A stretch of DNA of 64,000 nt, from the NCBI GenBank assembly GCA_002347565.1, contig DDXR01000076.1, positions 42,006 to 106,005 on the forward strand, given 5' to 3'. Of this stretch, positions 23,317-26,699 are shown one piece after another (the stretch's first letter is position 1; each line of letters begins with the position of its first letter). The position numbers were made by a program, and so were the translations under genes. The stretch is from a bacterium UBP2_UBA2255. Its GTDB lineage: Bacteria; Edwardsbacteria; AC1; EtOH8. Below the pieces are notes generated by a model. The model searched no databases and was not told the origin of the DNA. It saw only the letters and a list, made by a program, of their open reading frames with translations.

Positions 23317-24939
23317 CTACCGCACCACCACCAGCCGCAGGCGCCGCGCCGTCCCGCCGGCGCTCAACGCGACGAAGTACACGCCGGAACCGACCGCTGA
23401 TCCGGACCCGTCCCGGCCGTCCCAAGCAACGCGATGAATTCCTGCCTGCTGGATCCCGCGGTACAGGGTCCTGACCTTCTGTCCGCAAATGTTGTACAGT
23501 ACGAGCTCGACCGTTCCGGCCACGGGCACGCCATACGCTACCTCCGCACGGCCGCGGACCGGATTCGGCCGCGTCGCAAAAGGCATCGGGCCGGGCGGGC
23601 GGGCCGGGACCGGACCGCCGGAGACGCCGGTCAACTCCCGCCAGTTGGGCGGCAGCATCAGCTGGATTAGCGACACCCGCTCCTGGCCGACGTCCTGCCC
23701 CCAGTTGTCCGCCCAGACGACGCGCGATCCGTCGTTGCTGATCGTGCCGTGGGTCTCCTCCCAGTACTCGTCGGTGGTATTGTACAGCTTGGCGAGATAG
23801 AAGGCCCGGGGTTGCGCGGGGTCCAGTCTGACCAGTATCAGCGAGCGGTCCAGCCAGTTCTGCTCCGGCAGGCCGGACCCGATGGTGGTGGAGATCAACG
23901 CGAAGCTGTCGGCATTGCAGGAGACGTGGACGCCTGACTGCAGGCCCTGTGGCCCGCTGGCATAGTAGAGCCTGACCACGGGCACTGCTTGGGCGGCGGT
24001 GTCCAGCGGCACCAGCTCGATGTAGTCGTTGCCCGCATTCTGCCCCACCACCACCTCCCGGCCCAGCACGTCGATGCCGACATCGGCGTGGCCTATCGAG
24101 GCTCTCAAGGTCTTGATCCACGAGAAGGAGCGATCGGCCGCAGCCAGGCCCTGGATGGGGCCCGTACCGTTGTAGCCCAGGATGACCACGGAGCTTCCCA
24201 ATACCGACATCCCCACCCAGTCGATCTCCCGCTGGTCCGGCGGCAGGTAGTAGACGCCGGTCACCGTGTCCTGCAGCCGATCATAGGCAAACAGGTAGAG
24301 CGGCTCATAGTTGGCGCTGCCGTCGCCCTGCAGCATGAAGGCCCAGAAACGCTTATCGCGCGAGGACTCGCCCTCGTCCTTCATGGTGATGCGGTAGACC
24401 GGGCTGGAGCCGATGATCGGGCCGAGCACCGGATCCGTGGTAAAATCCTTGACCACGTTCTCCTGCCCGGAGATCACATTCACCGTCTTTATGGAGAAAT
24501 CCTCCACCCCCCAGATGAGGATAGGGTCGGTTGGATCCCAGCGCGGTTCGGAAAGATGCACCGCCCGCACCAAGTTCGCCGCCTGGTTGTATGGATATGA
24601 CAGAGTGCGATAGATATTCCACGATTCCTCGGGGTCCAGGATGATCATGGTCCTGTCGCTGTTGAAGGGATCGAACCGCGAGTATTCGTGCCGGCCATGG
24701 ATGCCACTGATAGCCGTGGCCCGGACCTGCATGGTACCGAAGCGCAGGTCCCAGAAGGTGTCCCCGACCGCCGGCGGCGTCATCGGGACCAGGGGATAGG
24801 CCGGACAGGTCCCGGAGAGCGGGTCGGTCACCTCGACGAAGGCGAAGGTGTCCGGGTATTGGGCATGCGCTGCGGGGCACGGGATCATGCCCGCCGCCAG
24901 AATGGCCGCGGCGATCGAAGGAATGAGGCGCATACCCAT
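23317..24939 (-). CDS. secreted protein (probable beta-propeller) with T9SS C-terminal sorting domain
   Basis: Start trimmed to MGMRLIPSIAAAILAAGMIPCPAAHA (signal peptide). The long upstream ORF extension overlaps the neighbour and is Arg/Gly junk. C-terminus AVGSGVYFVALSAGGTARRLRLVVVR. Confidence 0.65.
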   Translation of the reverse strand: MGMRLIPSIAAAILAAGMIPCPAAHAQYPDTFAFVEVTDPLSGTCPAYPLVPMTPPAVGDTFWDLRFGTMQVRATAISGIHGRHEYSRFDPFNSDRTMIILDPEESWNIYRTLSYPYNQAANLVRAVHLSEPRWDPTDPILIWGVEDFSIKTVNVISGQENVVKDFTTDPVLGPIIGSSPVYRITMKDEGESSRDKRFWAFMLQGDGSANYEPLYLFAYDRLQDTVTGVYYLPPDQREIDWVGMSVLGSSVVILGYNGTGPIQGLAAADRSFSWIKTLRASIGHADVGIDVLGREVVVGQNAGNDYIELVPLDTAAQAVPVVRLYYASGPQGLQSGVHVSCNADSFALISTTIGSGLPEQNWLDRSLILVRLDPAQPRAFYLAKLYNTTDEYWEETHGTISNDGSRVVWADNWGQDVGQERVSLIQLMLPPNWRELTGVSGGPVPARPPGPMPFATRPNPVRGRAEVAYGVPVAGTVELVLYNICGQKVRTLYRGIQQAGIHRVAWDGRDGSGSAVGSGVYFVALSAGGTARRLRLVVVR

Positions 24940-24986
24940 CCGTGATCCTACTCTATTACTGCCAGGACCGATGTGATCAGGCGACC

Positions 24987-26699
24987 TTACCGCACCACCA
25001 CCAGCCGCAGGCGCTGCGCGGCCCCGCCGGCGTTCAATGAGACGAAGTACACGCCGGAGCCGACCGCGGCCCCGGTCTCGTTCTTCCCGTCCCAACGGAT
25101 GGAGTGGCGGCCGGATTGCAGTTCGCCCCGCAGCAGCGTCCGCACCTTGCGCCCGGCGACATCGTACACCGTCAGGCTGGCCTTGGACCGTCCGGCCAGC
25201 TGGAAGCTGATCGCCGTGCCATTCGTTGCCGGATTGGGCGCGGCCCTGAGCGTGCCGATCGTCGCGGCCGGTCCCGTGGCCGGTCCCTGCGCCACGCCGG
25301 TGGCGACCGCCACGTAGCGGTGGCGCCAACTGGCCGGTGCGAAGCGCGGCTGCTGCTCGGCCCGGCCGGAGTTGTCGGTGGCCGAGATGTAGTACTCCAC
25401 GGTGTCGCCAGCGACGGCGCCCGGGATCGACGCGCTGAAGCTGTCGCTGCCGGCGGATGTCATGGTCAGCGAATCGTACGCGCCGCTGGTACCATAGCGG
25501 TAGAGGCAGCGGGTCGAGGTCAGCGAGAAGTTGGGGTGGCAGCGGACCAGCGATGTGATCGCCACCGGCGTCCCCGCCGGCTGGATCGCCGCCACCGGTT
25601 TGTGGCTGATCCACAGCATGGCCGAGTCGGTGACGCCCATGGTGCGGCAGTGAAGGGCATCGGTGCTCTGCCAGCCTGAGTAATATATGCCAACGATGCT
25701 GAAACCGGGTAGTGCCGTACGATATGCCTGAAGGGCGGCGGCGTCATTAGAAGTGTTCCATGTCGGTACGTAGACACGGTTGTTGACAATGAGGCTGTTG
25801 GTATAGCCCTCGGTGCCGCTGGAATACACCCGATGAATCTCCCAATTCCCCCCGTAATGATTCGGCACGGTCGACAGATATGATGCTGCGGCTTCTATGT
25901 TCGCATAGTCACCATGAGATGGAGGCACCTGCAAGACCAGCAGTTTTGTCGGGGAAATTATTTTTGCCCAGCAATCAATGTGATCAATGTAACTGGCCTG
26001 CGGGTCGACCAAGGTCAGGTAGTTATCCACGCCTAGGTACTGGAGCATCTGGTTGTCGACCCAAGCGTTGGAGCTGTCGTTCTCGACATACACCAGATTC
26101 GTCGACATCGATTGGCCATGCCCGCCCGACATGTAGTTGCCACCGGTGTGGACCAGTACTGATGAATAGATCGGGAGGTTCCAGGCTGTTCCTAGTTTGA
26201 TCGGTATAGAATCATCTTGAGGCCTGGGCCTATTGTACGCAAAATCGAAAATGCCCTGCCTGCCATCGGGCTTCATGACAAACCAGGGACCGTAGTCCCT
26301 TATCCATTCGTAATTTGTTGCGGCTATGACATAGCCAACATTGGTCATGTTGATCCCGTTTGAAGTAAGGCCAGATTGGCAAGAAGCTTGCTGTGAACTC
26401 GACACCACCATCCATAGTTTAGTATGATCGGACAGTGAGTCAAGTAACCGATAGGGCACTTCAAGCGGCCAGCGCACCAGCACGCCTGTCATTGGCTCGT
26501 ACTCGGCCGGGTTACGGGTACCGGTAGGCGGCGGGGCCGTGGCCGGGACATAGGTGCCGATCTCATGAATCCTGGTCAATTCCTCGGTGGTCATGCGATC
26601 ATGGGTTGCTTTCTCATGGCCGATCGCCTGGCCGTCAGCCAGCGCCGGGGTGACGGCTAGCAGCAATGACAAGAGCTGGGCCGGTATGGTATTCATCAC
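24987..26699 (-). CDS. peptidyl-arginine/agmatine deiminase-family enzyme (PPAD-like) with T9SS C-terminal sorting domain
   Basis: Signal peptide. DYGPWFV, NSLIVNNRVYVPTW and ALHCRTMGV match agmatine-deiminase/Porphyromonas-type PAD motifs, including the catalytic Cys. C-terminal Ig-like region ending AVGSGVYFVSLNAGGAAQRLRLVVVR. The catalytic region is ~50% GC; the CTD region is ~68% GC. Confidence 0.75.
   Translation of the reverse strand: MMNTIPAQLLSLLLAVTPALADGQAIGHEKATHDRMTTEELTRIHEIGTYVPATAPPPTGTRNPAEYEPMTGVLVRWPLEVPYRLLDSLSDHTKLWMVVSSSQQASCQSGLTSNGINMTNVGYVIAATNYEWIRDYGPWFVMKPDGRQGIFDFAYNRPRPQDDSIPIKLGTAWNLPIYSSVLVHTGGNYMSGGHGQSMSTNLVYVENDSSNAWVDNQMLQYLGVDNYLTLVDPQASYIDHIDCWAKIISPTKLLVLQVPPSHGDYANIEAAASYLSTVPNHYGGNWEIHRVYSSGTEGYTNSLIVNNRVYVPTWNTSNDAAALQAYRTALPGFSIVGIYYSGWQSTDALHCRTMGVTDSAMLWISHKPVAAIQPAGTPVAITSLVRCHPNFSLTSTRCLYRYGTSGAYDSLTMTSAGSDSFSASIPGAVAGDTVEYYISATDNSGRAEQQPRFAPASWRHRYVAVATGVAQGPATGPAATIGTLRAAPNPATNGTAISFQLAGRSKASLTVYDVAGRKVRTLLRGELQSGRHSIRWDGKNETGAAVGSGVYFVSLNAGGAAQRLRLVVVR

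What the first reader, a model, noticed from the sequence alone, without database searches (positions are those of the whole stretch)
23317..25070. Near-identical ~80-bp DNA repeat encoding the last ~27 aa of the T9SS CTD on two adjacent cargo genes
The 3' ends of the genes at 23317.. and 24987.. share TACCGCACCACCACCAGCCGCAGGCGC(C/T)GCGC...GACGAAGTACACGCCGGA(A/G)CCGACCGC with only a few mismatches. The encoded tails are AVGSGVYFV(A/S)L(S/N)AGG(T/A)A(R/Q)RLRLVVVR. The upstream domains are unrelated. This points to recent gene conversion or cassette-like exchange of CTD-encoding 3' ends, a possible mechanism for recruiting new cargo to T9SS.
Basis: seen in the sequence. Interest (0 to 1): 0.6.

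Follow-up and report, generated by a model that had tools for sequence, protein, structure and literature searches.

The report
Duplicated secretion-tail joint between cargo genes
Two neighbouring genes for secreted proteins end in the same ~81 bases because one gene took over the other's last secretion-signal hairpin by DNA recombination; this is a clean example of a known kind of event, not a new way of recruiting proteins for secretion.

Summary
The last 26 codons plus stop of gene A (23317-24939, minus strand) and gene B (24987-26696, minus strand) are 73/81 nt identical. At the 22 shared amino acids, 21 codons are identical against 9.4 expected from codon usage (P~1e-7). The 64 codons just upstream, in the same C-terminal domain, are only 46% identical. 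Independent assemblies carry both copies.

The tail belongs to the B lineage: B orthologues down to 71% identity end in ...QRLRLVVV[RK], while A orthologues have different tails. In the closest relatives B is followed directly by H1, with no gene A. Their sequence upstream of the tail matches window B. Their stop codon (TAG) and downstream sequence match what follows window A.

So the window reads B-tail-TAA-spacer-A-tail-TAG-H1, a 1,670-bp unit flanked by 81-bp direct repeats. The A copy sits in B's original context. The joint falls in the beta5-beta6 loop of a predicted seven-strand domain.

Best reading: recombination inside the domain-coding sequence spliced A between B and H1. The rival is in situ B-to-A gene conversion followed by deletion of A in relatives.

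Cargo recruitment is not supported, because A orthologues already carry such a domain. A second 81-nt patch in H1 (21718-21798) shows that such exchange recurs here.

The parts
24987..25067 (-). Tail copy 1. It is the last 26 codons of gene B plus stop TAA, and encodes beta6-beta7 of B's C-terminal domain.
   Evidence: It is 74/81 identical to the B tail of relative L019. Downstream of it (24940-24986) there is no homology to what follows B in relatives.
23317..23397 (-). Tail copy 2. It is the last 26 codons of gene A plus stop TAG. The sequence is of B-lineage type and sits in B's ancestral context.
   Evidence: It is 68-72/81 identical to B-lineage tails but 33-45/81 to A-orthologue tails. 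The 42 nt just upstream switch to A type (33/42 to L006_A). The stop codon TAG and the following 112 nt match what follows B in L021, L019 and L023 (0.73-0.83).
24987..26696 (-). Gene B, 569 aa: signal peptide, PAD_porph (agmatine/peptidylarginine deiminase-like) domain and a C-terminal sorting domain.
   Evidence: Pfam PF04371 1.3e-28 and FlgD_ig 2.9e-11. TIGR04183 34.7 bits against a cut-off of 23. The gene is mosaic: 26696-25700 is 0.63-0.78 identical to all relatives, while 25690-24987 is 0.88-0.98 identical to L021.
23317..24939 (-). Gene A, 540 aa: signal peptide, seven-bladed beta-propeller cargo and a C-terminal sorting domain (residues ~454-540). Beta1-beta5 are A type and beta6-beta7 are B type.
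   Evidence: FlgD_ig 9.9e-10. TIGR04183 28.9 bits against a cut-off of 23. AF2 model pLDDT 85, with seven strands at 454-538. The best PDB match is oligogalacturonate lyase 3pe7. Orthologues are at 70-71% identity.
24940..24986 (-). 47-nt spacer between the B stop and the A start. It is the left edge of the A unit.
   Evidence: There is no homology to the sequence after the A stop or to the sequence after B in relatives. Its origin could not be traced.
23281..23316 (-). Spacer between the A stop and the conserved H1 start (MLNGKRYAARF...). It is homologous to the B-to-H1 spacer of relatives.
   Evidence: One search shows the sequences side by side. One search gives 93/112, 89/112 and 82/112 identity over the spacer plus the H1 5' end.
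21634..23280 (-). Gene H1: beta-helix cargo plus C-terminal domain. An alternative start lies at 23307.
   Evidence: It is 74-79% identical to L021_X, L023_H and L006_H0.
21718..21798 (-). Second mosaic patch, inside the H1 C-terminal domain. These 81 nt are of H2 type.
   Evidence: The patch is 73/81 identical to L021_H2 at the same position in the domain, but about 0.6 to its own orthologue L021_X and to the resident H2. Of 24 shared residues, 19 use the same codon against 11.8 expected, P=0.0017.
19907..21637 (-). Gene H2: beta-helix/Disaggr_assoc cargo plus C-terminal domain. Its domain-coding end has diverged from the L021 orthologue.
   Evidence: Identity to L021_H2 is 0.8-0.95 along the gene and falls to 0.49-0.67 in the last ~300 nt.

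Best explanation
The repeat is a recombination joint.

Shown:
1. The 81-nt tail is B-lineage sequence.
2. Gene A keeps its own cargo and the first five strands of its own C-terminal domain. From the beta5-beta6 loop onward it carries B-type sequence.
3. That B-type sequence runs on, without a break, into the stop codon (TAG), spacer and H1 gene that follow B in every close relative.
4. Window B has a second copy of the tail, followed by TAA, a 47-nt spacer and gene A.
5. Close relatives have B directly followed by H1.

Inferred: in the window lineage a unit made of the spacer, the A cargo and A beta1-beta5 was spliced between B and H1 by recombination inside the domain-coding sequence. The right-hand crossover used the short conserved stretch around AV..GVYF. 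The mechanism could have been either of two:
- homology-anchored exchange with a B-A type array, in which case the two tails began as donor and recipient alleles;
- a copy or template-switch event that duplicated the tail.

The outcome is that both proteins end in a complete final beta-hairpin and C-terminal motif, so both should stay exportable. The four tightly packed genes (gaps of 47 nt, 36 nt by the H1 start conserved in relatives or 9 nt by the alternative start, and -4 nt) are probably still one transcription unit. After the event each copy collected four private substitutions.
For: - DNA identity is beyond codon bias, with a sharp 5' edge.
- The tail is B type. The motif ...QRLRLVVV[RK] is present in B orthologues P0274-P0276, P0279, L019 and L020. 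The win_A tail scores 62.6 against distant B tails and 41.5 against A tails (Mann-Whitney P=0.002).
- Flank test against L021, L019 and L023. Upstream of the tail they match win_B (0.82-0.85 over 150 nt). In the tail they match both copies (0.85-0.91). Over the 112 aligned nt downstream of the stop they match only the sequence after win_A (0.73-0.83). The repeat ends exactly at the stop codon.
- B-H1 adjacency without A occurs in L019, L020, L021, L023 and, in the other clade, L006. It is therefore older than the duplication. Window tails are 0.74-0.76 identical to the L020 tail but 0.90 to each other.
- Site patterns give ((win_A, win_B), L019_B), L020_B without homoplasy, with two shared derived sites.
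- In L006, L007 and L009 the A and B tails are unlike each other (0.41-0.47 nt).
- The joint lies in a loop of the predicted seven-strand domain.
- The same array shows other mosaics: the H2-type patch in H1, and the breakpoint at ~25690 in B.
Against: - No relative in the window's own clade carrying gene A was found, so the position of A before the event is unknown.
- Gene A is as distant from the other clade's orthologues (71%) as B is (70-71%). This fits long residence of A in this lineage and leaves room for A being ancestral at this site.
- If a circle had integrated by a single crossover, the two tails should be complementary hybrids. Instead both are fully B type, so the simple insertion model needs either a B-carrying donor or an added duplication or conversion step.
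- The (win_A, win_B) grouping rests on only one or two sites in 81 nt.
- Gene trees in this region conflict: MeaB and DUF885 disagree, and B is mosaic.
Confidence: 0.55

Rival explanations
1. In situ gene conversion followed by deletion in relatives. The order B-A-H1 was ancestral in this clade. A short non-reciprocal transfer copied B's last 81 nt onto A, ending where homology ends at the stop codon. Relatives later lost A by recombination between the resulting direct repeats, which left B joined to A's downstream sequence.
For: - L007/L011 have the order B-A-H.
- Gene A looks vertically inherited (71% to the other clade, like B).
- An internal conversion patch flanked by native sequence exists in H1, so short conversion between these domains does occur here.
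- The flank data are equally predicted by deletion across the repeats.
Against: - It needs A to have been lost separately from L019, L021, L023 and L020, and moved in L006. Alternatively it needs continued homogenisation in the window lineage. L020 and L006 already have B-H1 although they diverged long before the two tails did.
- The H next to A in L007 is a different family (H3), not H1.
- The tails before conversion would have been only ~45-60% identical, which is poor substrate for RecA-type conversion.
Confidence: 0.3
2. No recombination. The two tails are alike because the export machinery constrains the last strands of the domain, and a GC-rich genome leaves few codon choices.
For: The C-terminal motif of T9SS domains is functionally constrained (PMC11285876; PMC10994853). 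GC3 is high in this window.
Against: - 21 of 22 codons are identical against 9.4 expected (P~1e-7), including the rare TTG and GGG codons.
- Three other genes of the same kind in the window have quite different tails (36-51% nt).
- A and B tails are unlike each other in three related genomes.
Confidence: 0.02
3. Assembly artefact: a chimeric join or a duplicated contig end.
For: L004 has a run of N inside the B domain, so assemblers did struggle here.
Against: - The same arrangement, with the same eight differences, is found in a JGI assembly, two ENA k141 assemblies and a 106-kb NCBI/ENA contig.
- The longest exact shared run is 26 nt, well below those k-mer sizes.
- Both reading frames are intact.
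Confidence: 0.02
4. The 81 nt are a functional nucleic-acid element (RNA structure, terminator or regulatory site) kept identical by selection on the nucleotides.
For: Synonymous sites are nearly unchanged between the copies.
Against: - The folding energy is no better than shuffled sequence (z -0.53 and +0.46).
- There is no Rfam match.
- No terminator-like or promoter-like site lies on the gene strand at either copy.
- The B tail diverges from orthologues at an ordinary rate. For win_B against L019_B it is 0.92, within the range for the gene (rank 24 of 152).
Confidence: 0.03

Closest known systems
Modular C-terminal regions of Porphyromonas gingivalis T9SS cargo (RgpA, Kgp, HagA), which are rearranged by recombination and allelic exchange (Dashper et al. 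2017, PMC5266723)
   Same: In both cases T9SS-type cargo genes share C-terminal modules through recombination. The result is mosaic 3' regions on proteins that keep a conserved C-terminal domain.
   Different: In P. gingivalis the shuffled units are whole adhesin domains exchanged between dispersed loci and between strains. Here the unit is a sub-domain piece (the last beta-hairpin, 81 nt) shared by two adjacent genes with unrelated cargo, in an uncultured lineage near Candidatus Edwardsbacteria/UBP2.
Short-tract gene conversion and RecA-independent exchange between nearby direct repeats in bacteria (general knowledge, not tested here)
   Same: A short tract, direct orientation, 1.7 kb spacing, a sharp boundary and non-reciprocal copying. 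The internal patch in H1 (21718-21798) fits this pattern exactly.
   Different: For the A/B pair the copied tract runs to the very end of homology. The recipient copy also carries the donor gene's downstream context, which a simple conversion does not produce.
Homology-facilitated illegitimate recombination, i.e. cassette insertion with one homologous anchor (general knowledge, not tested here)
   Same: One side of the inserted unit could have been anchored by real homology (gene B). The other side would have joined at a short conserved stretch (AV..GVYF).
   Different: No donor has been identified. The mosaic pattern inside B does not line up simply with such a donor segment.
T9SS type A C-terminal sorting domain (TIGR04183/PF18962), a seven-strand beta-sandwich with a functionally important C-terminal motif (PMC10994853, PMC11285876)
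   Same: Both domains pass the NCBIfam cut-off. The AF2 model shows seven strands. The swapped piece contains strand beta7 and the basic residue near the C terminus.
   Different: Pfam scores the domains better as FlgD_ig, and PF18962 is below its cut-off for A and B. An Arg replaces the usual Lys. The organism is outside Bacteroidota, and its T9SS machinery has not been seen.

Membership tests
T9SS type A C-terminal sorting domain (TIGR04183 / PF18962) | The sequence matches the curated domain model above its cut-off, at the extreme C terminus. | tested here: met
   NCBIfam TIGR04183 scores A at 28.9 bits and B at 34.7 bits against a cut-off of 23, covering residues 458-538 and 486-567. Pfam PF18962 is below its cut-off (B 23.4 against 27; A has no hit), while PF13860 FlgD_ig passes for both.
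T9SS type A C-terminal sorting domain (TIGR04183 / PF18962) | Seven-strand immunoglobulin-like beta-sandwich fold. | tested here: met
   The AF2 model of A has seven strands at 454-457, 465-471, 475-483, 488-497, 500-506, 519-527 and 530-538, with block pLDDT 78-94 in that domain. This matches the description in PMC10994853 and PMC11285876. PorZ (5m11) is the second-best PDB match.
T9SS type A C-terminal sorting domain (TIGR04183 / PF18962) | N-terminal Sec signal peptide on the same protein. | tested here: inconclusive
   Both N termini look like signal peptides by eye (MRLIPSIAAAILAAGMIPCPAAHA; MNTIPAQLLSLLLAVTPALA). No predictor was run.
T9SS type A C-terminal sorting domain (TIGR04183 / PF18962) | The genome encodes the T9SS machinery (SprA/Sov, PorV, GldK/L/M/N, PorU). 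| not testable with these tools
   None of these genes is among the window ORFs scanned with Pfam. The rest of the genome was not available: the cassette pattern gave no hit in either contig collection.
T9SS type A C-terminal sorting domain (TIGR04183 / PF18962) | The domain is needed for export and is removed afterwards. | not testable with these tools
   This needs experiments.
Gene conversion / recombination tract between paralogous segments | DNA identity exceeds what protein constraint and codon usage give, with a significant breakpoint. | tested here: met
   21 of 22 codons are identical against 9.4 expected, P=1.2e-7. In the maximum chi-squared test, 0 of 20,000 permutations reached the observed value. 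A sharp switch is seen.
Gene conversion / recombination tract between paralogous segments | Phylogenetic incongruence: the tract groups by genome while the flanks group by gene. | tested here: met
   In the tail, win_A is nearest to win_B and the B lineage. In the upstream part of the domain, win_A is nearest to L006_A and win_B is nearest to B orthologues.
Gene conversion / recombination tract between paralogous segments | Direction of transfer can be assigned from outgroups. | tested here: met
   The direction is B to A. The motif is present in 6 or more B orthologues and in no A orthologue (Mann-Whitney P=0.002).
Gene conversion / recombination tract between paralogous segments | Simple conversion: the recipient keeps its own flanks on both sides of the tract. 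| tested here: not met
   Downstream of the tract, the A copy carries what is B's downstream sequence in relatives. The patch in H1 (21718-21798) does meet this feature.

The most novel reading that the evidence does not exclude
The 3' ends that encode the C-terminal domain may act as recombinase-free 'handles' for a variable cargo-gene array. Between the conserved genes B and MeaB, nine sampled lineages (the window plus eight others) carry zero to three co-oriented cargo genes in different orders: B-MeaB, B-H1, B-H1-H2, B-A-H1-H2, B-H1-A-H3, B-A-H3, B-x-H3-A and B-H3. The only sequence these genes share is the domain-coding end. The window holds three separate mosaics at those ends. If this is general, T9SS-type cargo repertoires would be reshuffled, gained and lost by exchange within the secretion signal itself. 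Every product would stay exportable, because the joint falls in a loop of the signal domain.
Probability: 0.25. Interest if true: 0.55.

Novelty: new member of a known kind. Interest (0 to 1): 0.33.

Why it matters
The finding gives a dated, base-resolved example of exchange within a secretion-signal domain. The final beta-hairpin, which carries the functionally important C-terminal motif, moved between unrelated cargo proteins without breaking either reading frame.

It also shows that the signal domain tolerates a chimera joined in the beta5-beta6 loop.

It hints that arrays of secreted enzymes in uncultured relatives of the Bacteroidota are reorganised through their shared signal-coding ends.

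It does not change what is known about how cargo is recruited. The underlying process, recombination between paralogous segments, is ordinary.

Tried and rejected
- **Other copies of the cassette.** The exact pattern CTGCGGCTGGTGGTGGTGCGGTAR had no hit in genome contigs or metagenome contigs. Known carriers (L001-L005) are evidently not in those collections, so this says nothing about the rest of the genome.
- **Word-indexed protein search.** The 42-aa tail profile then returned only three short fragments and was uninformative.
- **Full profile scan.** It was dominated by multi-repeat FlgD_ig proteins, but it did yield the key B fragments P0133 and P0156.
- **Exact look-up of B.** This failed, although a 100% identical protein (P0273) exists. 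The discrepancy is unexplained.
- **RNA structure or regulatory element.** Rejected.
- **Homology extending beyond the stop codon between the two copies.** None found.
- **Origin of the 47-nt spacer upstream of A.** The regions upstream of A in L006, L007 and L009 are too diverged to align.
- **B/H3 similarity in L025 (WDGRDA.GRRVGAG).** Codon identity is no higher than expected, 12 of 26 against 12.3, so it is not claimed.
- **H2-like tail on L023_H1, as a trace of H2 deletion.** The signal is only weak, 0.55-0.76 against 0.40-0.73, so it is not claimed.
- **Species tree to order the relatives.** MeaB and DUF885 disagree and B is mosaic, so the polarity of gain or loss of A rests on synteny parsimony.
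- **Taxonomy and literature.** The nearest named relatives are a Candidatus Edwardsbacteria MAG and UBP2 bins. Nothing on secretion in this group was found.
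Full report
**Anatomy**

The window is GC-rich (63%). At 19.9-26.7 kb, on the minus strand, it carries four tightly packed genes:
- B, 24987-26696: a PAD_porph/agmatine-deiminase-like enzyme.
- A, 23317-24939: no Pfam hit for the cargo part.
- H1, 21634-23280 (or start at 23307): beta-helix.
- H2, 19907-21637: beta-helix with Disaggr_assoc.

Each ends in a ~90-aa C-terminal domain. A fifth gene with such a domain lies at 38521-41760.

Pfam calls these domains FlgD_ig. NCBIfam TIGR04183 (T9SS type A sorting domain) passes its cut-off for A (28.9 bits), B (34.7 bits) and the fifth gene, and just misses for H1 and H2.

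- The last 26 codons of A and B are 71/78 nt identical, or 73/81 with the stop codon. They are in direct orientation, 1,670 bp apart.
- Using codon usage from the window's own genes, 21 of the 22 shared residues use the same codon against 9.4 expected (P=1.2e-7). In the 64 upstream codons of the same domain, nt identity is 46% and codon sharing is below expectation.
- A maximum chi-squared test places a breakpoint with 0 of 20,000 permutations as extreme.
- Only two copies exist in the window.
- Independent JGI, ENA and NCBI assemblies show both copies. Two strain variants carry one extra substitution in the B copy.
- There is no RNA-structure, Rfam, terminator or promoter signal at the repeat.

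**Whose tail is it**

Orthologues of A at ~70% identity all have a C-terminal domain, but with different tails.

Orthologues of B end in the same kind of tail as the window copies:
- Close ones: P0274/L021 at 81% (a Candidatus Edwardsbacteria MAG), P0275/L023, and the L019 and L020 fragments.
- Some distant ones: P0276 and P0279 at 71%.
- The shared ending is ...GVYFVAL.AGG.AQR[LM]RLVVV[RK].

The win_A tail scores significantly better against distant B tails than against A tails (P=0.002).

Along gene A the switch is sharp:
- The last 81 nt match the B lineage at 68-72/81 and A orthologues at 33-45/81.
- The preceding 42 nt match L006_A at 33/42 and the B lineage at 21-25/42.

The direction of transfer is therefore B to A.

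**The flanks change the picture**

In L021, L019, L023 and L020, B is followed directly by an H1 orthologue, with no gene A between them. Comparing these relatives with the window:
- The 150 nt upstream of the tail match window B (0.82-0.85).
- The tail matches both window copies (0.85-0.91).
- The stop codon is TAG in L019, L021 and L023 (L020 has TGA), as in window A.
- The next ~112 nt match only the sequence after window A (0.73-0.83).

Nothing after window B's TAA is homologous to either.

The window therefore reads B(beta1-5)-tail-TAA-47 nt-A cargo-A(beta1-5)-tail-TAG-H1. The copy on A sits in B's original context.

Site patterns among the four tails give ((win_A, win_B), L019_B), L020_B without conflict, with four private changes in each window copy.

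In the second clade (L006, L007/L011, L009/L012), A and B both exist and their tails are unlike each other (0.41-0.47 nt).

**Insertion or conversion plus deletion**

The order of cargo genes between B and MeaB differs in almost every lineage:

| Lineage | Order |
|---|---|
| L024 | B-MeaB |
| L023 | B-H1-MeaB |
| L021 | B-H1-H2-MeaB |
| window | B-A-H1-H2-GGDEF-MeaB |
| L006 | B-H1-A-H3 |
| L007 | B-A-H3 |
| L009 | B-x-H3-A |
| L025 | B-H3-... |

B-H1 adjacency occurs in both clades and in L020. The L020 tail is far more diverged from the window tails (0.74-0.76) than the window tails are from each other (0.90). That favours B-H1 as the older state, with A spliced in along the window lineage (confidence about 0.55).

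The alternative is an ancestral B-A-H1 order, in situ B-to-A conversion, and deletion across the repeats in relatives. It predicts the same flanks and cannot be excluded (about 0.3). In its favour, A is as distant from the other clade as B is, and no clade-1 relative with A was found. Gene trees here conflict.

**Structure and consequence**

An AlphaFold2 model of A (pLDDT 85) shows an all-beta cargo domain; Foldseek matches it to seven-bladed beta-propellers, with oligogalacturonate lyase 3pe7 the best PDB match. It also shows a seven-strand C-terminal domain at 454-538.

The swapped piece is strands beta6 and beta7, and the joint lies in the beta5-beta6 loop.

Published work identifies the C-terminal strand and a basic residue in it as important for export. 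It also finds that the conserved motifs mainly specify the fold (PMC11285876; PMC10994853). Both window proteins keep a complete hairpin, so export should be unaffected. This last point is an inference.

**Recurrence**

- Inside the H1 domain, 21718-21798 is 73/81 identical to H2 of L021, but about 0.6 to H1's own orthologue and to the resident H2. Of 24 shared residues, 19 use the same codon against 11.8 expected (P=0.0017). H1-type sequence flanks the patch on both sides.
- The domain-coding end of window H2 has itself diverged from its orthologue.
- Gene B switches at ~25690 from being equidistant to all relatives (0.63-0.78) to 0.88-0.98 identity with L021.

This array is a recombination hot spot, and the domain-coding ends are where the joints fall.

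**Comparison and verdict**

The closest documented case is the modular, recombining C-terminal regions of P. gingivalis gingipains and HagA (PMC5266723). There, whole adhesin domains are exchanged. Here the exchanged piece is a sub-domain hairpin shared by adjacent genes with unrelated cargo.

The process is ordinary recombination between paralogous segments, so this is a new member of a known kind.

The T9SS label rests on domain models and a predicted fold. No machinery gene is in the window.

Noticed in passing
window 30050-34550: A low-GC island (0.32-0.43, against 0.63-0.75 in the flanks) holds three minus-strand genes: an N6/N4 DNA methylase (30128-31222), a NucS_C/PD-(D/E)XK-type nuclease with a weak AlwI match (31225-32697), and a 506-aa protein of unknown function (32983-34503). 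It looks like a horizontally acquired restriction-modification module inserted next to the methylmalonyl-CoA mutase gene.
   Followed up: partly
window 21718-21798 (inside the H1 C-terminal domain): An 81-nt patch is of H2 type. It is 90% identical to the H2 orthologue of relative L021, but about 60% to H1's own orthologue and to the resident H2. It is an internal conversion patch flanked by H1-type sequence.
   Followed up: yes
window 24987-26696 (gene B), breakpoint near 25690: Gene B is mosaic. The 5' two-thirds are equally distant from all relatives (0.63-0.78 nt), while the 3' third is 0.88-0.98 identical to the Candidatus Edwardsbacteria MAG L021. This suggests allelic replacement of part of the gene.
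   Followed up: partly
window 19907-20300 (3' end of H2): Identity of H2 to its L021 orthologue falls from 0.8-0.95 to 0.49-0.67 in the last ~300 nt. H2's C-terminal domain seems to have been replaced or to have diverged fast.
   Followed up: no
window 26740-27825 and 27835-28905: Two tandem paralogous lipoprotein-like genes (44% identical to each other) consist of about eight repeats of a 'PCYW.GT.R.DLP' unit and have no Pfam match. Relatives have a single copy, and the second window gene is its orthologue at 57%.
   Followed up: partly
window 23317-24939 (gene A cargo) with H1 and H2: The best PDB match for A's propeller is an oligogalacturonate lyase (3pe7), and its neighbours are pectate-lyase-like beta-helix proteins. 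The array may encode a set of secreted polysaccharide-degrading enzymes. This rests on fold similarity only (13% identity).
   Followed up: no
window 52658-53010; 48660-48732; 48813-48886: A tmRNA gene and two tRNA genes lie on the plus strand.
   Followed up: no
L025 9540-9580 versus 11300-11340 (approximate): In another lineage the adjacent B and H3 genes share a ~40-nt patch (WDGRDA.GRRVGAG) at about 85% identity. Codon sharing across the domain as a whole is not above expectation, so no claim is made.
   Followed up: partly
L003 and L004 (strain variants of the window locus): The B tail carries CGG>CAG (RLRL to RLQL) in two assemblies from other samples. L004 also has a run of N inside the B domain.
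   Followed up: no
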